Virus record (IMG/VR): IMGVR_UViG_638277085_000001
Location: 163,399-227,398 of that record
Source: a virus
Lineage: Duplodnaviria > Heunggongvirae > Uroviricota > Caudoviricetes > Straboviridae
Direction: 5' to 3' (one strand)
DNA: 64,000 nucleotides
Position 1 is the first letter of the stretch. Each line of letters begins with the position of its first letter. Under the pieces are notes generated by a model, which did not search any database, was not told the DNA's origin, and saw nothing but the letters and a program-made list of their open reading frames with translations. The translations under genes were made by a program, and so were the position numbers. Positions 4,298 through 15,202 of this stretch are shown here, one piece after another.

Positions 4298-4323
4298 TAA
4301 AAAAGGGCGCTATTTGCGCCCTT
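4298..4323 (-). terminator. Rho-independent terminator after the minus-strand gene 4310..4840
   Basis: Hairpin aagggcgctatttgcgccctt preceded on the plus strand by aaaaaa, which gives a T-run after the hairpin on the minus strand. Confidence 0.55.
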
Positions 4324-4840
4324 TACGATTTGCCTTATTTGCTTTTCTTTTTGCTCTACGCAACTCTTTGCGTTTTGCGATTTTGTCTGCACGTCTAACT
4401 GCATCATAATCCGCAGCACACGACGCAGCAAACGCATCAGGCTTGAAAACGGGTTCTTGGCCCACGTATCCCAAGATAGTGCCCTTAGCTTCGTTATACG
4501 CAACGTGTGAACGATGGGATGGGTCTGGGTTGATGTCAACGTGAACTTCAAACCCACGAGTACCACACATTGGCTTAACACGCAGAGCAGTTTCACCTGC
4601 TTTATAGACTTCATTCATCAAACGACTACGAATACCATCTTTACACGACATGTACGCTGGTTCAGTTTCGATAGATTTGAATACTTGAGCGCCTTTGCTA
4701 CCCTCAAGGTGAATGATGATTACAGTAGCGTAACTAATCATATCACTCTTACGCTTGCTATCACACCCAACATAAATCGTACTGTTCGGATGACTGTTAT
4801 TGATAGCTGTTTCAATTGCTTCCCAATCGAACATTTTCAC
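4310..4840 (-). CDS. Hypothetical protein, possibly an RNase H-like-fold nuclease, with a lysine/arginine-rich C-terminal tail
   Basis: 176-aa ORF. The N-terminal motif TIYVGCDSK...ISYATVIIIH resembles the first beta-strand / catalytic Asp region of RNase H-like (RuvC/YqgF-type) folds. The C-terminus KRKELRRAKRKANKANRKGRK is basic and nucleic-acid-binding-like. The assignment is weak. Confidence 0.35.
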   Translation of the reverse strand: MKMFDWEAIETAINNSHPNSTIYVGCDSKRKSDMISYATVIIIHLEGSKGAQVFKSIETEPAYMSCKDGIRSRLMNEVYKAGETALRVKPMCGTRGFEVHVDINPDPSHRSHVAYNEAKGTILGYVGQEPVFKPDAFAASCAADYDAVRRADKIAKRKELRRAKRKANKANRKGRK

Positions 4841-4884: not shown

Positions 4885-6321
4885 TTAAAAGCTGTAGCGT
4901 TCAACGCCTACAGTTTTCAGCATGATCTTGACTGGCTCAAGCTCACCACCCAACAGTGAAGTCAGGATAGATGGGCTACAACCCGATACCAGTGCAGTAC
5001 CCGCTTCGCCAGCTTTAACCGGAACGTTGCCAAGACGACCACGAATGTTCCAGAAGACTAGTTGTGGCATTTCATAGCCAGCACGTGCGTACATAGCTTT
5101 GATTGCGTCGAAGTTTGCACGTTCGCCACGACCGTACCAGCCACCACCAGTATTTGCTTGGTCGAATTCCATGTCGCTCATGATAAGCAACTTAGTCGGC
5201 ATTTCTTCTTGTGAAAGATTTGCACGTTTCGCACGTTCTAACAGAACGTTGAAGCACTTACCGATGTTTGTGCTCATGTCTTCGCCTGATCGATTCATGT
5301 TGTCAAGACGCTCTTTTAGTGAGCTACCGCGTAACTGGTGGAAGTGCGGATCGCTTGAGAACGAAATGAACTGATCTTTGAAGATGCCTTCATTGCGTTC
5401 AGCAACATAGATGCCAAGAGACATTGCAACTTGCTTACAAGTCACACCTGAACGATCTGCACCTGCGTTGATTGGCGTGCTCATAGAGCCAGACACGTCA
5501 ACAACTGGGATGATGCGCTCATCAGAGCCTTCCATGTAGTTCGGCAGGGCTTTCCATTGCTCGTTCGCTACAGACGCATTACCATGACTAACGCTCTTAA
5601 CGACATCATATGGGAACAAGGCACCAGCGTTGATCTTCGCTTCACCTTTTTGAAGCGACTCGATGTAGCTTGTGTAACGAACAGAAGCGTTACGACCGAA
5701 TGCTTTTTGATAACGAGCAGACGCTACAGATGGCAACTTACCGAAGTCGATTGCATCCCATTCTTGCGCACACATCTTCTGTTCAACAGTGTCAGACAAA
5801 AGTGCTAGAATCTTACGCCACTGCTTCGCAGTTACACCAAGAGACTTGATTGTGCGCTTGAACACATGACCGTTTTTGCTGTTCTCGCGTGGGAACCACT
5901 TCGCAGCGAGACCGTTCTTGTCGTTTACAATCGCATTTGACCACAGTGTGATCGCGTCTTTTTCAAGTCTTGTGCCGAAAGCAGAAATCAAGTCGTCGAA
6001 GCGACCTAGTTCTGGAATTTTCGACATTACAGCACGAGCTACGTCAGGCTGCTCATTACAAAGCTTAGTGAATAGAGTACGGAAAGTACCACGTTCACCC
6101 GCACCACCGCGAACATCACGAGACCACAAAAGAATGCGTGTCGCTAGTTCTGGGTTTTCTGCAAACGCACGACCGAACAGTGTTTTAGACTGATCGTTAC
6201 CACGCATAGCAGCAATACCGAAGAACAAGTTTAGACACTCGTTACCTGAAGTGCTGTGAGTAACTGCACCGTTTGCTGTACGTGAATCGTTTGATTGCAT
6301 AGCGTTCATAAATGCTGACAT
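4885..6321 (-). CDS. von Willebrand factor A (MIDAS) domain protein of the DUF2828-like type, with an N-terminal roughly 260-aa helical domain followed by vWA. This architecture is reminiscent of Ro60/Rsr (TROVE+vWA).
   Basis: 478 aa. The MIDAS motif VVDVSGSMS lies at about residue 270, followed by an alpha/beta vWA-like region. The N-terminus MSAFMNAMQSNDSRTANGAVTHSTSGNECLNLFF matches my recollection of DUF2828-family N-termini. Confidence 0.5.
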   Translation of the reverse strand: MSAFMNAMQSNDSRTANGAVTHSTSGNECLNLFFGIAAMRGNDQSKTLFGRAFAENPELATRILLWSRDVRGGAGERGTFRTLFTKLCNEQPDVARAVMSKIPELGRFDDLISAFGTRLEKDAITLWSNAIVNDKNGLAAKWFPRENSKNGHVFKRTIKSLGVTAKQWRKILALLSDTVEQKMCAQEWDAIDFGKLPSVASARYQKAFGRNASVRYTSYIESLQKGEAKINAGALFPYDVVKSVSHGNASVANEQWKALPNYMEGSDERIIPVVDVSGSMSTPINAGADRSGVTCKQVAMSLGIYVAERNEGIFKDQFISFSSDPHFHQLRGSSLKERLDNMNRSGEDMSTNIGKCFNVLLERAKRANLSQEEMPTKLLIMSDMEFDQANTGGGWYGRGERANFDAIKAMYARAGYEMPQLVFWNIRGRLGNVPVKAGEAGTALVSGCSPSILTSLLGGELEPVKIMLKTVGVERYSF

Positions 6322-6727: not shown

Positions 6728-7059
6728 TGAAACCCCGCTTGTTTGTTTTCTCGAATTGTCAATTTGACAAAAGAATATGAGTAATCTCTCATATCACGCG
6801 GATCTCCAGAGTAATGTCCGAACTGTGCATCGAAGTTATGAAAACCCTCGCGTCGCATGACGCCTTTGATGAGAGACATCATTTCATCACAACATTCATT
6901 GCGGTCAACATTCACCTGAATCGTGATTGGAAACTGAAACCCAGCAACGCCCCCGATTTTACGTTCGATTGCTTTGCGCATTTCAACTACGAAGAGTTCT
7001 TCACGAGTTGAGCGATTCTGTTTGACTTTTTGAATTAATGTATCGTATAAATTACCCAT
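6724..7059 (-). CDS. Hypothetical protein (start placed at the internal Met MGNLYDTL; the ORF track extends it to 7131)
   Basis: An ORF exists. The longer version would overlap the upstream gene by 80 nt, whereas the Met at 7059 gives an 8-nt overlap. Confidence 0.35.
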   Translation of the reverse strand: MGNLYDTLIQKVKQNRSTREELFVVEMRKAIERKIGGVAGFQFPITIQVNVDRNECCDEMMSLIKGVMRREGFHNFDAQFGHYSGDPRDMRDYSYSFVKLTIRENKQAGFQ

Positions 7060-7426
7060 CAATATATTCCTTAATCGGCTTAGAAAAGTGACGAATACAA
7101 GAACTGTCAAGTCGTTTACGACCATCACCATCTATATCAGGTAGTGTGTATTCGTCATTAAACGGCTGACCGCTTTCTTTCGCAATCTCATAGGCATCGG
7201 CTCGATTGAAGTATTCACCACAATAGTTGATAAACCCCTGACCGCGATCCCCGAGTTCGTTTCGATGTTCATATGTACAACCTAGTTCTTTCAATAACTT
7301 AAAGACTGATTGCATGTTTCGACCGAAATGGCAGCTATCAGCAACAACAATGTCGCGCACTTCACCGTTCGGTAGTGTCACTCGAATTGCATTAGCAGCA
7401 GACGATATTACATTGACGTGCGACAT
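7052..7426 (-). CDS. Hypothetical protein
   Basis: 124-aa ORF. Confidence 0.4.
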   Translation of the reverse strand: MSHVNVISSAANAIRVTLPNGEVRDIVVADSCHFGRNMQSVFKLLKELGCTYEHRNELGDRGQGFINYCGEYFNRADAYEIAKESGQPFNDEYTLPDIDGDGRKRLDSSCIRHFSKPIKEYIDG

Positions 7427-7764
7427 GTATCGTACCTCATAAAAATTGAACCAACGCGCTTATACTGACCAGAGTGAGAAAGCAACAGAGCCATTTTACT
7501 ATGACCAACGGGATTGCTTGTCACTAGAACAACAGTGCGCGGAAAATTACGATGATCAATCGCATGAGAGAGAATATCATACCCCTCTCTACCAACATCA
7601 TCACCTAGGTCATTGTCCATGAATAGAGTGATGTCAGTTAGATTTGTGTGCTTGACGAAATTCATACCGTCTTCGAATGTACGAAGAACTAGCTTTTCAT
7701 CGTCGCGTACGTAATCTGACGTGAACTTATTAATGTCACGCAGATCATCAATCATAACGTACAT
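7408..7764 (-). CDS. Small protein with CheY-like receiver-domain signature residues (possible stand-alone receiver-like protein)
   Basis: 118 aa. It has MIDDLRD (acidic pair), LFMDNDLGDD (candidate phospho-acceptor Asp), LVTSNP (Thr/Ser) and a downstream HSK (Lys), in the order and spacing typical of receiver domains. Confidence 0.3.
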   Translation of the reverse strand: MYVMIDDLRDINKFTSDYVRDDEKLVLRTFEDGMNFVKHTNLTDITLFMDNDLGDDVGREGYDILSHAIDHRNFPRTVVLVTSNPVGHSKMALLLSHSGQYKRVGSIFMRYDTCRTSM

Positions 7765-9738: not shown

Positions 9739-9827
9739 TGGCGGAGATACTGGGAATCGAACCCAGAGAACGCTATTAACGTCCGACACCTTAGCAGGGT
9801 GCTGTCATACCTTTAGACCATATCTCC
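9739..9827 (-). tRNA. tRNA-Ser(GCU), type II with a long variable arm; CCA encoded
   Basis: Hand fold: 7-bp acceptor GGAGATA/TATCTCC, T-arm CTGGG TTCGATT CCCAG, anticodon stem GCACC/GGTGT with loop CTGCTAA. Confidence 0.65.
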
Positions 9828-9833
9828 GTAGAT

Positions 9834-10012
9834 CATTTCTTACCACGCTCTGCTTTGCTAATCTCGACAGCAGCGATTTGCGCGTTGGCTTCTTTCTCAG
9901 TGTCATGAGTACCAAGTACTCGACCTTTAGATGAAAGAGCAACCCATTTGTCGCCACGCTTCTCGACTTTCTCAACAAGCTTGTGATATTCATCAAATGT
10001 TTTAAGTTTCAT
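9834..10012 (-). CDS. Small hypothetical protein (59 aa, MKLKTFDEYHKLVEKVEKRGDKWVALSSKGRVLGTHDTEKEANAQIAAVEISKAERGKK). It is absent from the ORF track because it is under 60 aa.
   Basis: ATG preceded by GAGGGA. A clean ORF lies between tRNA-Ser and the next intergenic region. Confidence 0.5.
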
Positions 10013-10267
10013 GTGTCATCCCTCAGTTAGTTTATTGTATTTATAACTGAACGACTTTTAAACAGTGGCATGCTGCTCCCATGCTCAGACACATATTTGC
10101 TCTTAATGCAGGCGTGTGCCACGCGCAGCGCAGATCCCATTCGATAATTTAATGACCAGCGGGACTCTTAGCAGGTCTACACATAGCCTTTCAGCTATAT
10201 CTTCTTTTAAGACCATAGTGTCGTACGGTCTAATCACTCTCTTTCGATTCGCGTTGCTAAGTGAATT

Positions 10268-10344
10268 TGGTGCCCAACCCGAGATTCGAACTCGGATCAT
10301 CTAGTGTTTGAAACTAGCGCCTCTGCCAATTGGACTAGTTGGGC
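10268..10344 (-). tRNA. tRNA with anticodon CAA (Leu-decoding) but a short 5-nt variable loop (type I); A73; CCA encoded
   Basis: Acceptor GCCCAAC/GTTGGGC is perfect. D-arm is GTCC-AATTGGCAG-AGGC. Anticodon stem CTAGT/ACTAG with loop TTCAAAC. T-arm CCGAG TTCGAAT CTCGG. Confidence 0.55.
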
Positions 10345-10460
10345 TTGAATAAGCTGCCGCAACTCTTTAATCCCTAACGCCTGTCAGCTTTCGCTCGGCT
10401 GAGACCGTTTTTCAACGGCGGTAGTCTAGCTTCGTGTAGAACGCGGCTTATGCTAGAGTT

Positions 10461-10537
10461 TGGTACGCACGGGCGGATTCGAACCGCCATCCCTGAGATT
10501 TTAAGCCTCATGCCTCTGCCAATTGGACCACGTGCGC
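10461..10537 (-). tRNA. tRNA with anticodon UAA (Leu-decoding), type I; A73; CCA encoded
   Basis: Acceptor GCGCACG/CGTGCGT (G1.U72). D-arm nearly identical to that of 10268..10344. Anticodon stem TGAGG/TCTCA, loop CTTAAAA. Confidence 0.55.
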
Positions 10538-10539
10538 AG

Positions 10540-10613
10540 TGGAGCCCGAACAGAGAATCGAACTCTGACCGCGGGATTTGCAATCCCTCATACTTCCATT
10601 ATACGATTCGGGC
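10540..10613 (-). tRNA. tRNA-Cys(GCA); CCA encoded
   Basis: Acceptor GCCCGAA/TTCGGGC. Anticodon loop TTGCAAA. T-arm CAGAG TTCGATT CTCTG. Confidence 0.65.
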
Positions 10614-10716
10614 AATTTGTTAGTGCATTGCATGGACTACTGGCGATCTTAATGGGTATCTCAAGCATTCAGAATTCCCATGCGCTACTACAATGCTTTT
10701 TTCGCTAAATGCACTT

Positions 10717-10793
10717 TGGGGTGACAGACGGGGATCGAACCCGCATCTTCCGGAATCACAACCCGGGGGTATTTCCACTTCACCCACTGCCAC
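10717..10793 (-). tRNA. tRNA-His(GUG); discriminator C73; CCA encoded
   Basis: Acceptor GTGGCAG/CTGTCAC. Anticodon stem CCGGG/TCCGG, loop TTGTGAT. Confidence 0.65.
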
Positions 10794-10847
10794 ACCAAAG
10801 TACACTTTGGGATGTTTACGACATCAAACGAATGCGCTCCCTGTGCA

Positions 10848-11087
10848 TTAATCAGTTTTCTTTAAGTAGATACTATCAGGCGATAGCTCTCTCGTAAACA
10901 TATTTTTGAAATAAATTTCGATGTCATCAGAAGTTGTTGAAGACTCAATTTCAAGAGCACGTTCTAAAATCTTACCGCGTTTATAACCAGCGCGCCAACA
11001 GTCAAACATAAGTCTGTCCATGCGTTTCAGTTTTTCAATTTGGTTTTGATTTACGTATTCGTGAGTTTCAAGTAATACAGGCGTCAT
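10848..11087 (-). CDS. Hypothetical protein
   Basis: 79-aa ORF located between tRNA genes. Confidence 0.4.
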   Translation of the reverse strand: MTPVLLETHEYVNQNQIEKLKRMDRLMFDCWRAGYKRGKILERALEIESSTTSDDIEIYFKNMFTRELSPDSIYLKKTD

Positions 11088-11100
11088 AATTTATTTCTCA

Positions 11101-11174
11101 TCATAAAGAATGGTAGTCCCTAGTGGAATCGAGCCACTTCTTTCTCTGTGTAAAAGAGACGTACTGCCATTATA
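11101..11174 (-). tRNA. tRNA-Val(UAC); CCA encoded
   Basis: Acceptor GGTCCCT/AGGGACT. Anticodon stem TCTCT/AGAGA, loop TTTACAC. The T-loop CTCGATT is slightly atypical. Confidence 0.6.
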
Positions 11175-11179
11175 CTAAG

Positions 11180-11253
11180 GGACCAAAATTGGAGCGGGTA
11201 CACGGACTCGAACCGAGACGAACGACTTGGAAGGACGTCATGCTACCATTACA
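11180..11253 (-). tRNA. tRNA-Gly(UCC); CCA encoded
   Basis: Acceptor GCGGGTA/TACCCGC is perfect. Anticodon loop CTTCCAA. Confidence 0.65.
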
Positions 11254-11267
11254 TCATACCCGCATTG

Positions 11268-11462
11268 TTAATCTGAAGCGTCGAACAAATCACGTATTGC
11301 ACGCAGATTCGTAAGCTCTACAGTAAGTGTTCTTATAAAGAACGGGTTGGTCTCTTTCGCGAGACGATTTTCAACACAGCGAATCTTATCGCGTATGTTG
11401 CCCTTGCTTAGTGTAAAGTAGTCATGCTTCTTATCCTCTTTGCTTGAATTTGGTGGAGACAC
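11268..11462 (-). CDS. Doubtful small ORF (no ATG; it would need a GTG start inside the 3' end of the adjacent tRNA)
   Basis: ORF-track ORF of 64 aa. Its 5' end overlaps tRNA 11451..11526. Confidence 0.2.
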   Translation of the reverse strand: MSPPNSSKEDKKHDYFTLSKGNIRDKIRCVENRLAKETNPFFIRTLTVELTNLRAIRDLFDASD

Positions 11463-11526
11463 CGATACTCGAAATCGGATCTAATGGCTTATGAGACCAT
11501 TGCTCTACCACTTGAGCTACATCTCC
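11451..11526 (-). tRNA. tRNA with anticodon CAU (elongator Met or lysidine-Ile2); CCA encoded
   Basis: Acceptor GGAGATG/TGTCTCC. D-arm GCTC-AAGTGGTA-GAGC. Anticodon stem ATGGT/GCCAT, loop CTCATAA. Confidence 0.6.
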
Positions 11527-12030
11527 AAAATCAGTAATTAACTCATTTAATCGCACACGGGCTGACACCATATATTCATGGTCTGAGCGAGGAACCACAT
11601 AGTGGGTACTATTACCTCATCTTAGTTTTGATTGTTTTACATGACGATAACTAGAAACGTTCATAATAATGCCACGCGATACTTCCTGTATCACGGCTAA
11701 CTGAGTTAGCATATCGTGCCTTGCGGCTGTAGTGTCGTTTCCGACGAATTAAGTACAGACAATACCGAAGTGTTTTTTCGTCTTTGACATGAATCGGAGT
11801 TGACTATCTTGTTATTCACAACAAGCAAATATCGTCTGTTTCAGCGACGCGCCTATCTGACTATTTCTAGACAGAGAGAATCTTTCCTTTCAAGCTGCAC
11901 CGAAGCACCGCCCAGGTTAAGATCATTACCATTTTAAGTAAGATTTTAATTTGTTGCTGTATATTGTCTCTCAAACCATGCTCGTGATATGCCGAAGCAA
12001 GTATCATTCGGCGCATGATAGAGCTTAATT

Positions 12031-12106
12031 TGGCATCCCCAGAGGGATTCGAACCCACAACCCACGACTTAGAAGGTCGTTGCTCTTCCAATTGAGCTAT
12101 GAGGAC
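12031..12106 (-). tRNA. tRNA-Arg(UCU); CCA encoded
   Basis: Anticodon stem ACGAC/GTCGT, loop CTTCTAA. T-arm GTGGG TTCGAAT CCCTC. Confidence 0.6.
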
Positions 12107-12182
12107 GTTGAAAGTATTCGATCCATGAGCTATTGCGCAGACGATGGTAGTAAAGAGACTCTGCACTCATGTGATCGAAATT

Positions 12183-12258
12183 TGGTGGACACGCAGGGAG
12201 TCGAACCCTATCTTCCTCATTGCAAGTGAGGCGCTTTCCCAATTAAGCTAACGGCCCA
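12183..12258 (-). tRNA. tRNA-Ala(UGC)-like with G3.U70 present but the lower three acceptor pairs mismatched (possible pseudo-tRNA)
   Basis: D-arm GCTT-AATTGGGA-AAGC. Anticodon stem CCTCA/TGAGG, loop CTTGCAA. T-arm TAGGG TTCGACT CCCTG. The 5' end GGGCCGT versus 3' end CGTGTCC pairs only at positions 1-4. Confidence 0.45.
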
Positions 12259-12268
12259 ATGTTCGTTT

Positions 12269-12480
12269 TTACAACTGTGTGATTGAGATATGATCCCAGC
12301 CGTATAAACCTTCAAGTTCTTCAATAGGCTCACAAACAATGTCAGAAATATATTCAGCAACTTTTGCTTCAATTTCTTCATCAGATAGCTTTTCATCAAT
12401 TGCAAAAGCATCTTCATTATTGTTGCCACCGAAATAGCCACCAATGTCATATTCACACCATACTGAAATATAGTTCATGT
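12269..12480 (-). CDS. Hypothetical acidic small protein (start placed at MNYISVW; the ORF track extends it into the tRNA)
   Basis: 70-aa ORF. The longer track version overlaps tRNA-Thr. Confidence 0.35.
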
Positions 12481-12502
12481 TATTCTCACAGTTGTTTGAA
12501 AA

Positions 12503-12578
12503 TGGTGCCCTGACACGGATTTGAACCGCGAACCTGCTCATTACAAGTGAGCTGCACTGCCAATTGTGCTATCAGGGC
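12503..12578 (-). tRNA. tRNA-Thr(UGU); CCA encoded
   Basis: Acceptor GCCCTGA/TCAGGGC is perfect. Anticodon stem GCTCA/TGAGC, loop CTTGTAA. Confidence 0.65.
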
Positions 12579-12706
12579 GTTACTGAGTGTTATTACTTGC
12601 GTCGTCCAGACCAGAGATACCAACTCTGAAAGGGAATCGAACCCCAAACATTTCTTTTCGTAAGAAGAATATTAGTAATTGTTTGCTGAAAACACTCTTC
12701 GGTATT

Positions 12707-12780
12707 TGGCAGGGGATAACGGATTCGAACCGGTACTGCGTGAGTCAAAGTCACGTATGCTGCCTTTACATCAATCCCCT
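12707..12780 (-). tRNA. tRNA-Gln(UUG); CCA encoded
   Basis: Acceptor AGGGGAT/ATCCCCT. Anticodon stem CGTGA/TCACG, loop CTTTGAC. Confidence 0.6.
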
Positions 12781-12799
12781 ATTATTCTTAAATTATCTT

Positions 12800-12875
12800 T
12801 GGCGGAACCGACGGGTTTCGAACCCGCTACCTTCTCCGTGACAGGGAGACATGCAACCACTTACACCTCGGCTCC
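12800..12875 (-). tRNA. tRNA-Asp(GUC); CCA encoded
   Basis: Acceptor GGAGCCG/CGGTTCC. Anticodon stem TCTCC/GGAGA, loop CTGTCAC. Confidence 0.6.
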
Positions 12876-13097
12876 CCAAAGACAACTTAACGTTGCTTTG
12901 TGCTCGTGCAAACCAAACACTAGCTGAACGACTTCTTGATTTCTTAGTTGTACTACACATTCCCTCGCTAAAGGGCGTCATCGTTCTTGTTTTTAACAAA
13001 TGCTATGAAAGTGAGATCTTGCTATGCAGGAGGTTTCAAATCTCTGCACACAAGCAGACATCGCAACCAACGCTCTCAAACATTGTCATGGTCAAAC

Positions 13098-13173
13098 TGG
13101 CGCCTTATGTTGGACTCGAACCAACGACTCTCTGGTTAACAGCCAGACACTCTACCGACTGAGTTAATAAGGC
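13098..13173 (-). tRNA. tRNA-Asn(GUU), copy 1; CCA encoded
   Basis: Acceptor GCCTTAT/ATAAGGC. Anticodon stem TCTGG/CCAGA, loop CTGTTAA. Confidence 0.6.
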
Positions 13174-13179
13174 AAAATA

Positions 13180-13254
13180 TGGCGGGCGTGGAGAATTTCG
13201 AAATCTCGACCTGACGGTTAACAGCCGTCTGCTCTGCCTCTGAGCTACACACCC
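13180..13254 (-). tRNA. tRNA-Asn(GUU), copy 2 (divergent sequence; atypical palindromic T-arm with a 53-61 mismatch); CCA encoded
   Basis: Acceptor GGGTGTG/CACGCCC. Anticodon stem GACGG/CCGTC, loop CTGTTAA. T-arm GAGAT TTCGAAA TTCTC. Confidence 0.5.
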
Positions 13255-13332
13255 TTTAAATTAAACAGCAATCCTTTTCTCTTTTTCCAAATAAAAGTTT
13301 TGTATTGTTTGCTGAAAGATTGCTTAATTCTG

Positions 13333-13527
13333 TTACGACGTAAACTGCTCGACTTTACAAGAGTCAACATCGTCAAACTTTTCGATTCGTTTAGCTAACA
13401 TTTTAGCCTTTCGCTCAATCGAGCGATCTTCGTAACCGAATTCAGATTTGTTATTGTCACAAGCTAATGCGCTCGACTTGACAACAGTCGAATCATTCAT
13501 TACCATCACTAGTCTGTACATAAACAC
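13333..13527 (-). CDS. Hypothetical protein
   Basis: 64-aa ORF between tRNA genes. Confidence 0.35.
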   Translation of the reverse strand: MFMYRLVMVMNDSTVVKSSALACDNNKSEFGYEDRSIERKAKMLAKRIEKFDDVDSCKVEQFTS

Positions 13528-13536
13528 CTCTGATAA

Positions 13537-13610
13537 TTGGCAGGGACATAGAGATTCGAACTCTAACGAACGGGTTTGGAATCCGTCATGCTGCCGTTAC
13601 ATCATGTCCC
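13537..13610 (-). tRNA. tRNA-Trp(CCA); CCA encoded
   Basis: Acceptor AGGGACA/TGTCCCT is perfect. Anticodon loop TTCCAAA. Confidence 0.6.
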
Positions 13611-13616
13611 TAAAAT

Positions 13617-13690
13617 TTGGTAGCCCCAGACAGACTCGAACTGTCAACGTGCGATTATCGGTCGCGTGTTTTACCGTTAAACTATGGAGC
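13617..13690 (-). tRNA. tRNA-Ile(GAU) (C at position 33 and a C.A at 27-43 in my fold); CCA encoded
   Basis: Acceptor AGCTCCA/TGGGGCT. Anticodon region CGCGA CCGATAA TCGCA. Confidence 0.5.
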
Positions 13691-13755
13691 TAAAGTGAGC
13701 ACATTTCAGTGCTCGTGTTAATCGGTTAAGTGACTAAACTTCCCGGTTAACTAAT

Positions 13756-13854
13756 TGGCGGAAGACTAGGGATTCGAACCCTAACATCACCTCCCGGTGA
13801 CCGACGGTTTTCAAGACCGTTGCCGCTACCCAGAATCTTTCGGCTAAGCCTTCC
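13756..13854 (-). tRNA. tRNA-Ser(UGA), type II, unusually long (96 nt + CCA) with an oversized D-loop
   Basis: Acceptor GGAAGGC/GTCTTCC. Anticodon stem ACGGT/ACCGT, loop CTTGAAA. Variable arm TCACC-GGGA-GGTGA. Confidence 0.5.
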
Positions 13855-13861
13855 ATTAATT

Positions 13862-13937
13862 TGGTAGCGAGTGCCAGAATCGAACTGACCTAAACTAGCT
13901 TATGAGACTAGTGAGTTCACCAGAACTCTAACTCGCA
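13862..13937 (-). tRNA. tRNA with anticodon CAU (Met/Ile2 candidate) and an unpaired 1-72 (U.U); CCA encoded
   Basis: D-arm GAGT-TCTGGTGA-ACTC. Anticodon stem CTAGT/GCTAG, loop CTCATAA. Confidence 0.55.
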
Positions 13938-14038
13938 ATTATTCAACAGCTTGCGTTCTTTGGTCTGTTTATCGCTGTCTGAACTGAGTTCGCCGAGCGA
14001 TCAATAGATTAAGTTGAATTGCAGTATGCAAGCTAAAT

Positions 14039-14124
14039 TTGGTGGAGCGTAGAGGAATCGAACCTCTCTTCCCATTACGGGACACGGATTTACAGTCCGC
14101 TGCCGCACCTTGCGGCTTACGCTC
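14039..14124 (-). tRNA. tRNA-Tyr(GUA), type II; CCA encoded
   Basis: Acceptor GGAGCGT/ACGCTCC is perfect. Anticodon loop CTGTAAA. Variable stem TCCC/GGGA. Confidence 0.65.
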
Positions 14125-14130
14125 CAGAAT

Positions 14131-14205
14131 TTGGTACTCGATACGGGAGTCGAACCCGTCCTACTTCCTTGAAAGGGAAGTGACCTACCGATAGTCGAAT
14201 CGAGC
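14131..14205 (-). tRNA. tRNA-Glu(UUC); CCA encoded
   Basis: Anticodon stem CTTCC/GGAAG, loop CTTTCAA. D-stem is 3 bp. Confidence 0.55.
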
Positions 14206-14269
14206 ATTAAATTGTATATTGATTTGCAAGCTAATCAACTCGCAAAGCGATACACAATGTATCTAATTT

Positions 14270-14346
14270 GGTACGCCGCCCTGGACTCGAACCAGACACC
14301 TGAGAGTTAAAAGCTCCCTGCTCTTCCATGATGAGCTACCGACGCA
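14270..14346 (-). tRNA. tRNA-Lys(UUU), copy 1; CCA encoded
   Basis: D-arm GCTC-ATCATGGAA-GAGC. Anticodon stem GGGAG/CTCTC, loop CTTTTAA. G.G at 7-66. Confidence 0.55.
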
Positions 14347-14354
14347 TTATAAAA

Positions 14355-14429
14355 TCTGGTGGGTCGCAAGAGATTCGAACTCTCACCGTTCTGGTTAAAA
14401 GCCAGATGTACTACCGTTATACGAACGAC
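14355..14429 (-). tRNA. tRNA-Lys(UUU), copy 2 (divergent); CCA encoded
   Basis: Acceptor GGGTCGT/GCGACCC. Anticodon stem TCTGG/CCAGA, loop CTTTTAA. Confidence 0.6.
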
Positions 14430-14435
14430 CCAGAA

Positions 14436-14510
14436 TGTGGTGCACCCCCTCGGAATCGAACCGAGCACTGCGGGACTTCAATCCGCCGCTTTTCCTGATA
14501 AGCTAAGGGT
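14436..14510 (-). tRNA. tRNA-Phe(GAA); CCA encoded
   Basis: Acceptor GCACCCT/GGGGTGC. Anticodon loop TTGAAGT. Confidence 0.6.
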
Positions 14511-14511
14511 G

Positions 14512-14589
14512 CATGGTACGCAAGAAGAGATTCGAACTCTTAACTTCTGGTTTCTAAGACCAGTGCCTCTGCCAGATTGGGCTACTTGC
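14512..14589 (-). tRNA. tRNA with anticodon UAG (Leu-decoding), type I with a short variable loop; A73; CCA encoded
   Basis: Acceptor GCGCAAG/CTTGCGT. D-arm GCCC-AATCTGGCAG-AGGC. Anticodon stem CTGGT/ACCAG, loop CTTAGAA. Confidence 0.55.
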
Positions 14590-14624
14590 GCATTGTTTGT
14601 TTTTGAACGTTACTTCGTTCTTCT

Positions 14625-14660
14625 TCATTGTACATGATGTTTATATCGTTGTAAACATCT
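14625..14660 (-). promoter_or_regulatory. T4-early-like sigma70 promoter (minus strand: A-rich UP, -35 GTTTAC, 18-nt spacer, -10 TACAAT), copy 1 of a tandem pair
   Basis: The reverse complement reads aaaaaagatGTTTACaacgatataaacatcatgTACAATgaag. It sits immediately upstream (minus orientation) of the tRNA block starting at 14589. Confidence 0.5.
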
Positions 14661-14709
14661 TTTTTGAAAAACTTTTCATTAACTTTTGAATGATATTTCG
14701 CTTTTCTCT

Positions 14710-14745
14710 ATTGTACATGATGTTTATATCGTTGTAAACATCTTT
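14710..14745 (-). promoter_or_regulatory. T4-early-like promoter, copy 2 (35/36 identical to copy 1)
   Basis: Same GTTTAC-N18-TACAAT arrangement. The two copies form a direct repeat 80 bp apart. Confidence 0.5.
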
Positions 14746-14903
14746 TTAAATTTATTTTGAAGAACTTAACGTTTTCATTTTTCTATGTGTTAATCTTAAC
14801 ACTCGCTCAAGACATCTTAAACACTAATTTGTGAAAAAGTTCGTTAAATTCTATCATCACGACAGTACTTAACGAGATACGGTCCTAAGCGTATCAAATT
14901 AAT

Positions 14904-15028
14904 TCAGAATGGTGAGACTTGAACTCACTTCGAGTAATAGCGTAAACTAACAGTTGTTGCCAGAGGCTATCAATTATTCTCTACCGAGTATGTTGCAACT
15001 CTGCATTTCCCCATTTCTAGGCATTCTG
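14904..15028 (-). ncRNA. 125-nt tRNA-like element. The termini form a perfect 7-bp acceptor-like helix (CAGAATG/CATTCTG) stacked on a T-arm (GTGAG TTCAAGT CTCAC), with a roughly 90-nt non-cloverleaf body.
   Basis: Acceptor and T-arm complementarity seen directly. There is no D or anticodon arm and no encoded CCA. Confidence 0.35.
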
Positions 15029-15033
15029 AAATA

Positions 15034-15109
15034 TGGCACCCCACAGAAGATTCGAACTTCTAACCTGCGCCTTCGTAGGACGCTGCTCTTCCAATTGAGC
15101 TAGTAGGGC
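15034..15109 (-). tRNA. tRNA-Arg(ACG); CCA encoded
   Basis: D-arm GCTC-AATTGGAA-GAGC. Anticodon stem GCGTC/GGCGC, loop CTACGAA. Confidence 0.6.
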
Positions 15110-15116
15110 ATTAAAC

Positions 15117-15193
15117 TGGTCCGTGACAAGCGATTCGAACGCTTAACTTCTCCGCCCCAAACGGAGTACTCTACCAGATTGAGCTAGTCACGG
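15117..15193 (-). tRNA. tRNA-Pro(UGG), copy 1 (C1-G72); CCA encoded
   Basis: Acceptor CCGTGAC/GTCACGG is perfect. Anticodon stem CTCCG/CGGAG, loop TTTGGGG. Confidence 0.65.
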
Positions 15194-15202
15194 ATTTTAA
15201 AT

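What the first reader, a model, noticed from the sequence alone, without database searches (positions are those of the whole stretch)
4885..6321. vWA/MIDAS protein with an N-terminal helical domain in the same island as the Y-RNA-like tRNA mimics (possible Ro60/Rsr-like RNP partner)
Bacterial and phage Y RNAs are almost always encoded near an Ro60/Rsr orthologue, whose architecture is an N-terminal helical TROVE domain plus a C-terminal vWA domain with a MIDAS site. The 478-aa protein here has exactly an N-terminal helical domain of about 260 aa followed by a vWA domain with the MIDAS motif DVSGSMS. It sits within about 10 kb of five tRNA-mimic RNAs and next to the tRNA island. It is shorter than canonical Ro60, and its N-domain may instead be DUF2828-type, so homology to TROVE is unproven. 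The co-occurrence is nevertheless suggestive of a phage-encoded RNP or RNA quality-control module.
Basis: inference. Interest (0 to 1): 0.75.

Follow-up and report, generated by a model that had tools for sequence, protein, structure and literature searches.

The report
Phage Ro60-like protein beside tRNA genes
This Vibrio phage KVP40 gene encodes a diverged relative of the Ro60 RNA-binding protein, from a large phage family already annotated as "Ro-like" that often sits next to tRNA gene arrays. In several unrelated phages it lies directly beside a widespread class of oversized tRNA-shaped RNAs for which I found no published description, and these RNAs are its best candidate partners.

Summary
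The ORF is real: window 4885-6321, minus strand, 478 aa, KVP40.0300, named "RNA-binding protein" in RefSeq. It is Pfam DUF2828 + DUF7788 and PHROG 850.

**Prior knowledge.** The family occurs in 711 phage records. Its Bas63 orthologue gp130 (46% identical) counters the Ppl defence system, and it does so alone when moved into T7. The authors of that work already proposed a Ro60/Y-RNA link.

**Link to RNA genes.**
- The gene abuts co-oriented tRNA arrays in many lineages, but not all.
- The five "tRNA mimics" are real structured RNAs. They are not YrlA.
- They belong to a widespread phage RNA family: a tRNA body plus a UGAYAA hairpin and an ACAGCAA module.
- That family lies within 500 nt of the Ro-like gene in at least five unrelated phages or contigs.
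- Many other lineages that carry the protein lack these RNAs.

**Verdict.** New member of a known kind. The ribonucleoprotein idea is plausible and testable, but unproven.

The parts
4885..6321 (-). Ro-like protein gene KVP40.0300 (478 aa; DUF2828 + DUF7788; PHROG 850)
5536..6321 (-). N-terminal basic alpha-helical (HEAT-like) domain, residues 1-262. Net charge +10. Twelve K/R positions are conserved across lineages.
4888..5535 (-). C-terminal Ro60-type vWA domain, residues 263-478
   Evidence: hhalign 95% / E 2e-8 to Ro60 residues 315-538; Pfam DUF7788
5485..5499 (-). MIDAS DxSxS motif (D275-S279). With T351 and D383 it is invariant in the family.
4310..4840 (-). Downstream neighbour: RNase H-like protein (PF04308/DUF458), a predicted ribonuclease
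7408..7764 (-). Upstream neighbour: cREC receiver-like domain, predicted to process cyclic phosphates in RNA repair
   Evidence: PMC9503650
9739..17187 (-). Co-oriented tRNA array (28 ARAGORN tRNAs), upstream of the gene in the direction of transcription
15903..16018 (-). Oversized tRNA-like RNA e1 (tRNA-Pseudo-3). A tRNA-Asn(GUU) body with a ~42-nt module in the 5' strand of the anticodon stem.
   Evidence: 101.8 bits
17569..17692 (-). Oversized tRNA-like RNA e2 (tRNA-Pseudo-4). A tRNA-Asn(GUU) body with the module after position 37.
   Evidence: 98.7 bits
17702..17815 (-). Oversized tRNA-like RNA e3 (tRNA-Pseudo-5)
   Evidence: 84.4 bits
17933..18056 (-). Oversized tRNA-like RNA e4 (not annotated in RefSeq)
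   Evidence: 109.7 bits; 76% identical to a metagenomic element
18321..18443 (-). Oversized tRNA-like RNA e5 (not annotated in RefSeq)
   Evidence: 103.6 bits
19108..19563 (-). 57B-like protein, weakly similar to 2H/LigT RNA 2',3'-cyclic phosphodiesterase. It lies just upstream of the oversized RNA cluster.

Best explanation
KVP40.0300 belongs to the large phage DUF2828/DUF7788 ('Ro-like RNA-binding protein', PHROG 850) family. It has a basic HEAT-like alpha-solenoid fused to a Ro60-type vWA domain with a complete MIDAS site.

Shown here: the domain make-up, the whole-protein fold similarity to Ro60, the Ro60-specific relationship of the vWA domain, its position downstream of and co-oriented with a tRNA array, and the recurrence of that arrangement in unrelated phages.

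Shown by others: the 46%-identical Bas63 orthologue gp130 neutralises the Ppl defence system and raises plating efficiency even when moved into T7.

Inferred: the protein is an accessory or anti-defence factor. Its basic solenoid binds structured, tRNA-shaped RNAs, either tRNAs or the oversized tRNA-like RNAs. Its MIDAS face recruits or blocks a protein partner. This would parallel the way Ro60-Y RNA complexes tether and attenuate PNPase.

Approximate sub-probabilities: Ro60-like fold and architecture 0.8; direct RNA binding 0.55; the oversized tRNA-like RNAs as dedicated partners in KVP40 0.3.
Confidence: 0.55

Rival explanations
1. The protein is an anti-defence factor that acts through protein-protein contacts. 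The MIDAS face of the vWA domain binds an acidic residue of a host defence protein (Ppl-like or other) and blocks it. The solenoid is only a scaffold. Adjacency to tRNA genes reflects shared early or accessory expression, not a shared function.
For: gp130 alone is sufficient in T7 and from a plasmid. The MIDAS residues are invariant across all lineages, and vWA/MIDAS domains typically bind protein ligands (established knowledge of the fold). No conserved RNA partner is found across lineages. No protein neighbour is conserved across lineages.
Against: The N-domain is basic, with 12 conserved K/R positions. Co-orientation with tRNAs is strict, 313 of 313. The gene is repeatedly adjacent to one particular RNA family in unrelated phages. 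The closest structural relatives are all RNA-binding Ro60 proteins. Host RNAs could serve as partners in the T7 experiment.
Confidence: 0.25
2. The protein is a tRNA maturation or repair scaffold. It holds damaged or precursor tRNAs, and possibly the module-bearing tRNA-like RNAs, for the phage RNA-end-healing and ligation enzymes (Rnl/Pnk, cREC, 2H/57B, RtcB). Any anti-defence effect would be secondary to keeping the tRNA pool intact.
For: cREC and DUF458 flank the gene, and 57B/2H flanks the RNA cluster. In Listeria LP-125, an RtcB ligase, an RNA ligase and a phosphoesterase follow the gene. Bacterial rsr is commonly linked to rtcBA, and Aravind's group places TROVE proteins in RNA-repair platforms. 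In e1 and e2, excising the module would restore a perfect tRNA-Asn anticodon arm.
Against: RNA-repair genes are not conserved neighbours across lineages. Ppl is thought to be a DNA-directed PHP nuclease/ATPase, not a tRNA nuclease. T7 has no tRNAs or repair enzymes, yet it benefits from gp130.
Confidence: 0.15
3. The resemblance to Ro60 is convergent. A generic HEAT-like domain became fused to a vWA domain, giving a protein with a function unrelated to RNA, for example an assembly co-chaperone.
For: The N-domain alone is not Ro60-specific and has no TROVE sequence signal. vWA proteins act as co-chaperones in some phages.
Against: The vWA domain and the preceding helix are specifically related to Ro60. 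The full-length match covers 386 residues. No MoxR-type ATPase partner is nearby. The tRNA and RNA-element synteny argues against it.
Confidence: 0.05

Closest known systems
Ro60/Rsr-Y RNA ribonucleoproteins (Xenopus/human Ro60, D. radiodurans Rsr, Thermus phage phiLo Ro60 with Yrl1/Yrl2)
   Different: No TROVE domain is detectable by sequence. The N-domain is about 100 residues shorter, and on its own it matches only generic solenoids. No Y RNA or YrlA is present. The candidate RNAs have a normal, unpermuted tRNA topology with free CCA ends and a module in the anticodon arm. No binding data exist.
Bas63 (Felixounavirus) gp130, an anti-Ppl counter-defence protein (PhageMaP preprint 10.1101/2024.10.10.617714)
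   Same: Same family: 46% identity over the full length, and the same Pfam architecture. The gene abuts a co-oriented tRNA array. It was described as structurally Ro60-like, with the same Y-RNA speculation.
   Different: Bas63 has no oversized tRNA-like element near the gene. The anti-Ppl activity has not been tested for KVP40, and Vibrio hosts may present different defences.
Mycobacteriophage cluster L 'Ro-like RNA binding protein' (e.g. LeBron gp53)
   Same: Same DUF2828/DUF7788 family (31-34% identity), already annotated as Ro-like.
   Different: No tRNA or tRNA-like RNA lies within 10 kb of the LeBron gene. These are temperate siphoviruses with a different genome context.
YrlA (Rfam RF02553), the tRNA-mimicking bacterial Y RNA
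   Same: It is a tRNA-like module with T- and D-arms encoded near a Ro-type gene. It is processed by tRNA enzymes.
   Different: YrlA is permuted: its ends form the Ro-binding stem and its acceptor arm is closed. The KVP40 RNAs keep tRNA order and an open acceptor stem. The only Rfam hit (29.8 bits against a gathering score of 69) is an artefact spanning two tandem elements.
Phage T4 rnaC/rnaD (species 1 and 2 stable RNAs) in the syntenic 57B-tRNA region
   Same: Similar size (119-139 nt), and the same genomic neighbourhood at the edge of the tRNA cluster.
   Different: They are not matched by the covariance model of the KVP40 family. T4 lacks the Ro-like gene.

Membership tests
Ro60/Rsr (TROVE + vWA) family | TROVE domain (Pfam PF05731) detectable in the N-terminal ~350 residues | tested here: not met
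Ro60/Rsr (TROVE + vWA) family | C-terminal Ro60-type vWA domain with a MIDAS site | tested here: met
   hhalign gives 95% probability, E 2e-8, for residues 231-461 against Ro60 residues 315-538. D275, S277, S279, T351 and D383 are invariant.
Ro60/Rsr (TROVE + vWA) family | Closed ring (toroid) of HEAT-like repeats capped by the vWA domain | tested here: inconclusive
Ro60/Rsr (TROVE + vWA) family | Y RNA / YrlA encoded within ~4 kb on the same strand | tested here: not met
   No Rfam Y RNA or YrlA reaches threshold in the window or in seven homologous loci. The 29.8-bit YrlA hit is a tandem-gene artefact. A different tRNA-like RNA class lies adjacent in some phages.
Ro60/Rsr (TROVE + vWA) family | Binds Y RNA or misfolded RNA, and tethers PNPase | not testable with these tools
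   Requires biochemistry.
Phage DUF2828/DUF7788 'Ro-like RNA-binding protein' family (PHROG 850) | PF11443 and PF25043 above gathering score, and a full-length PHROG 850 match | tested here: met
   DUF2828 scores 100.9 bits (cut-off 29), DUF7788 scores 155.9 bits (cut-off 27.1), and PHROG 850 gives E 2.8e-172 over residues 1-478.
Phage DUF2828/DUF7788 'Ro-like RNA-binding protein' family (PHROG 850) | Full-length homology to the characterised member Bas63 gp130 | tested here: met
   46% identity, E 4e-144, residues 1-476.
Phage DUF2828/DUF7788 'Ro-like RNA-binding protein' family (PHROG 850) | Counter-defence activity (anti-Ppl) | not testable with these tools
   Shown only for Bas63 gp130.
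YrlA (RF02553), for the five tRNA-like RNAs | Score at or above the Rfam gathering threshold, and the permuted tRNA-like topology with a terminal Ro-binding stem | tested here: not met
   The best score is 29.8 bits against a threshold of 69. The elements have standard tRNA topology with covarying acceptor, D, T and inner-hairpin helices.

The most novel reading that the evidence does not exclude
The oversized tRNA-like RNAs combine a tRNA acceptor/D/T body with a module that replaces or interrupts the anticodon arm: a UGAYAA-loop hairpin followed by an ACAGCAA motif. I found no published description of this phage non-coding RNA class. On the most novel reading, these RNAs are the functional counterparts of Y RNAs for the DUF2828-type Ro-like proteins, and together they form a phage ribonucleoprotein that counters host defences. 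Alternatively, the module is an intron-like insertion that phage RNA-repair enzymes remove, with the Ro-like protein acting as the platform.
Probability: 0.25. Interest if true: 0.8.

Novelty: new member of a known kind. Interest (0 to 1): 0.55.

Why it matters
The DUF2828-type Ro-like family is one of the commonest accessory genes of large lytic phages: 711 isolate genomes and thousands of metagenomic proteins. One member defeats a bacterial defence system by an unknown mechanism. If the family works as a ribonucleoprotein with tRNA-shaped RNAs, Ro60/Y-RNA biology would extend into phage-host conflict. That would also give a function to the "pseudo-tRNAs" scattered through phage tRNA arrays. 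KVP40, Aeh1 and BUCT-ZZ01 are culturable systems in which the protein-RNA pairing can be tested directly.

Tried and rejected
- **TROVE membership.** Pfam at E <= 10, HMMER profiles against PDB sequences and hhalign of the N-domain gave nothing significant. A separate AlphaFold model of residues 1-265 matched only generic solenoids.
- **YrlA / Y RNA.** There are no Rfam hits at threshold. The one weak hit is an artefact spanning the T-arm of one element and the D-arm of the next.
- **Known ribozymes or other Rfam families for the insertion module.** None were found.
- **T4 rnaC/rnaD as members of the oversized-RNA family.** The model does not match them.
- **A protein partner conserved across lineages.** A census of neighbours in about 90 loci found only clade-specific synteny.
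- **NCBIfam and PADLOC.** Neither has a model for the protein.
- **Literature.** One search was wasted on "trove" matching "treasure trove". The term DUF2828 returns only irrelevant plant papers. The phi-pp2 and Aeh1 genome papers list the RNAs only as pseudo-tRNAs. I found no paper describing the RNA family.
- **ARAGORN intron-mode calls of 150-180 nt.** I rejected these as fusions of adjacent tRNAs.
- **The element from the L133 clade.** It has no blastn match among isolated phages.

Full report
**Observation**

The window is Vibrio phage KVP40; position 1 corresponds to record position 163399. An ATG-to-stop ORF of 478 aa lies on the minus strand at 4885-6321. It is KVP40.0300 / NP_899547.1, which RefSeq names "RNA-binding protein". 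DVSGSMS is at residues 275-281. A co-oriented array of 28 tRNAs occupies 9739-17187.

**What the protein is**

- Pfam assigns DUF2828 (100.9 bits) and DUF7788 (155.9 bits). PHROG 850, "RNA-binding protein", matches end to end at E 3e-172.
- The family is very large. More than 7,800 proteins match at E <= 1e-5, and all those listed have the same two domains.
- tblastn finds it in 711 isolated-phage records. These include Felixounavirus, cluster L mycobacteriophages (annotated "Ro-like RNA binding protein"), and phages of Listeria, Enterococcus, Staphylococcus, Campylobacter, Bacillus and Aeromonas, as well as jumbo phages.
- NCBIfam and PADLOC have no model for it.

**Is it Ro60-like?**

An AlphaFold2 model (pLDDT 74, pTM 0.68) is helical from residue 28 to 258, followed by a vWA fold.

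- Foldseek's ten best PDB hits are all Ro60, including the Thermus phage phiLo Ro60, with TM-scores of 0.47-0.57.
- At the sequence level, a cross-lineage profile (A3) ranks Ro60 chains first among PDB sequences, but only at E 0.4-0.9 and only over the MIDAS segment.
- I built a Ro60 alignment from database proteins that carry PF05731. They were retrieved with a recalled human Ro60 sequence, which proved 99% identical to a real one.
- hhalign against that alignment gives 95% probability (E 2e-8) for residues 231-461 against Ro60 residues 315-538. That region is the last ring helix plus the vWA domain.
- The N-terminal 240 residues give nothing significant (E 0.21). No family member hits Pfam TROVE even at E <= 10.

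Conclusion: the vWA domain is Ro60-type and the overall solenoid+vWA arrangement is Ro60-like. TROVE membership is tested and not met. The N-domain is a basic HEAT-like solenoid with net charge +10 and 12 K/R positions conserved in at least 14 of 15 diverse members. The MIDAS residues are invariant.

**What is already known**

- Chen et al. 2014 surveyed only genomes annotated with TROVE, so this family was not covered.
- In that work, gp130 alone rescues T7 on a ppl host and raises plating above the no-defence control. The authors speculate that some "tRNAs" are Y RNAs.
- I verified that Bas63 gp130 (MZ501086) is 46% identical to the KVP40 protein over its full length, E 4e-144.
- The canonical phage Ro60 of phiLo binds two upstream Y-like RNAs and attenuates host PNPase.
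- Iyer et al. 2021 note "ROT/TROVE" proteins with tRNA-like partners in some jumbo phages.

**Genomic context across phages**

The gene sits next to a co-oriented tRNA array in several lineages:

| Phage lineage | Position relative to the array |
|---|---|
| Felixounavirus | 160 nt from the array |
| Campylobacter PC14 | 230 nt |
| Listeria LP-125 | 0.6 kb; RtcB, an RNA ligase and a phosphoesterase lie downstream |
| Bacillus Tsamsa | 0.6 kb |
| Enterococcus phiSHEF16 | 1.3 kb |
| KVP40 | 3.4 kb |
| LeBron | no tRNA within 10 kb |

In 80 viral-contig loci, 30 have a tRNA within 6 kb and 22 have one within 1 kb. All 313 of these tRNAs are on the gene's strand. Among 34 long contigs with full flanks, 12 have a tRNA within 2 kb. 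My rough chance expectation is about 7%, which gives a binomial P of about 2e-6, but the loci are not phylogenetically independent.

No protein-coding neighbour recurs across lineages. In KVP40 the neighbours are an RNase H-like DUF458 protein and a cREC domain, which is predicted to process cyclic phosphates in RNA repair.

**The "tRNA mimics"**

Rfam's tRNA model and ARAGORN's intron mode find five 114-124-nt elements at 15903-16018, 17569-17692, 17702-17815, 17933-18056 and 18321-18443. RefSeq annotates three of them as pseudo-tRNAs.

Each has tRNA acceptor, D and T arms, and often an encoded CCA. In the anticodon arm each carries a 40-50-nt module: a 5-6-bp hairpin with a 6-nt loop (consensus UGAYAA), followed by an invariant GCA.

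On 18 sequences from five diverged T4-like groups:
- 97.9% of pair cells are paired, against 67% in shuffles and 33-46% in slid controls.
- Five of the six inner-hairpin pairs change on both sides.

They are not YrlA. The only hit scores 29.8 bits against a gathering score of 69, and it spans two tandem elements.

A covariance model (R1) separates family members from ordinary tRNAs:
- Family members score 76-110 bits. These are the five in KVP40 and two in Aeh1, which lie 2.6-2.8 kb downstream of the Aeh1 Ro-like gene.
- Ordinary tRNAs score at most 47 bits.
- T4 rnaC/rnaD are not matched.
- No element is found within 10 kb of the Ro-like gene in the Felixounavirus, LeBron, Listeria, Campylobacter, Tsamsa, Staphylococcus or Enterococcus loci.

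**Reverse test: from the RNA to the protein**

A pattern scan of viral contigs found more than 119 stretches. The model confirms 45 full-length members (53-107 bits) in 41 loci. In the consensus fold of these 45, 18 of 22 pairs show compensatory changes.

The elements are embedded in tRNA arrays at normal tRNA spacing; 39 of 41 loci also hold ordinary tRNAs. The Ro-like gene is present in 11 of these 41 stretches, which average 8.8 kb. It is always co-oriented with the elements, and these genes span at least five clades below 60% identity. In L134, L133, L110 and L144, and in L077 from the first set of 80 loci, an element lies within 500 nt of the gene.

Among isolated phages, blastn with a metagenomic element finds only two groups: the KVP40-like phages (76% identity to e4) and Synechococcus phage BUCT-ZZ01. 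BUCT-ZZ01 encodes a Ro-like protein (39% identity, E 2e-120). Within 430 nt of its stop codon there follow one tRNA and then two elements scoring 81 and 96 bits.

It is confounded by the fact that both features associate with tRNA arrays. It is also clearly not universal for the protein family.

**Mechanism**

Best supported (confidence 0.55): an accessory or anti-defence protein of Ro60-like architecture. Its basic solenoid binds tRNA-shaped RNAs, and its MIDAS face engages a protein partner. The fold, the context and the orthologue's phenotype are shown. RNA binding and the identity of any partner RNA are inferred.

Rivals:
- A purely protein-directed MIDAS inhibitor (0.25).
- A tRNA repair or maturation scaffold (0.15).
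- Convergent architecture with a function unrelated to RNA (0.05).

**Novelty and score**

The protein is a new member of a known, already annotated family, and the Ro60/Y-RNA idea is already published for an orthologue. What this analysis adds is the negative TROVE test, the quantified tRNA synteny, and the definition of a widespread oversized tRNA-like RNA family that is repeatedly adjacent to the gene. Interest: 0.55.

Noticed in passing
window 15903-16018, 17569-17692, 17702-17815, 17933-18056, 18321-18443 (all minus strand); L002:14061-14176 and 14193-14314; L215:19996-20242; 45 members in L096-L175: A widespread phage RNA family for which I found no published description. It has a tRNA acceptor/D/T body of 114-129 nt, usually with an encoded CCA. 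Its anticodon arm carries a hairpin with loop UGAYAA, an (A)CAGCAA motif and often a second hairpin (UUCCA...UGGAA). Covariation is strong, and the elements are embedded in tRNA arrays at normal tRNA spacing. Rfam recognises them only as tRNA with an insertion.
   Followed up: yes
window 15903-16018 (e1) and 17569-17692 (e2), with orthologues in L090, L091 and L093: Deleting the module restores a perfect tRNA-Asn(GUU) anticodon arm. In e1 the module interrupts the 5' strand of the stem (CG|UGC-CUGUUAA-GCACG). In e2 it follows position 37 (AAAGA-AUGUUA|A-UCUUU). The restored arm is fully conserved while the module flanks diverge. This suggests either an intron-like or mobile insertion, or tRNA genes recruited to a new function. 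KVP40 also has two intact tRNA-Asn(GUU) genes at 13098-13254.
   Followed up: partly
window 19108-19563 (minus strand), and the syntenic genes in L090-L094: The 57B-like gene is annotated 'RNA ligase/cyclic nucleotide phosphodiesterase' and gives a weak LigT/2H hit (E 4e-6, below the cut-off). It lies just upstream of the oversized-RNA cluster in all KVP40-like phages. T4 has the same 3-1-57A-57B-tRNA synteny, but its rnaC/rnaD do not match the RNA model.
   Followed up: partly
window 4310-4840, 7052-7426, 7408-7764 (all minus strand): An RNase H-like DUF458 protein, an arn.3-like protein (PHROG 839) and a cREC domain flank the Ro-like gene. cREC is predicted to process cyclic phosphates. Together they form a possible RNA-processing gene cluster specific to KVP40-like phages.
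   Followed up: partly
window 13180-13254, 13756-13841, 13862-13937, 14040-14125: ARAGORN and Rfam call tRNA-Asn, tRNA-Ser(UGA) and tRNA-Met genes that the RefSeq record does not annotate. They also call a tRNA-Tyr that RefSeq labels 'Pseudo-2'. The KVP40 tRNA complement appears under-annotated.
   Followed up: no
L002:13926-14044 (Aeromonas phage Aeh1): A 119-nt tRNA-like element lies next to the two family members. A second T-arm-like hairpin (GAACGGTTCGATTCCGTTG) is nested in its anticodon region. It scores only 31.9 bits with the family model.
   Followed up: no
L018:9357-9468 and 9748-9868; L042:8267-8382: Other 112-121-nt tRNA-like elements lie downstream of the Ro-like gene in marine viral contigs. 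They lack the UGAYAA hairpin but carry a similar GCAAUU motif. They may be a related or separate class.
   Followed up: no
L005:12855-18232 (Listeria phage LP-125): An RtcB-like ligase, a second RNA ligase, a HAD-like protein and a phosphoesterase lie within 7 kb downstream of the Ro-like gene. Together with the adjacent tRNA array this forms a compact RNA-repair island.
   Followed up: no
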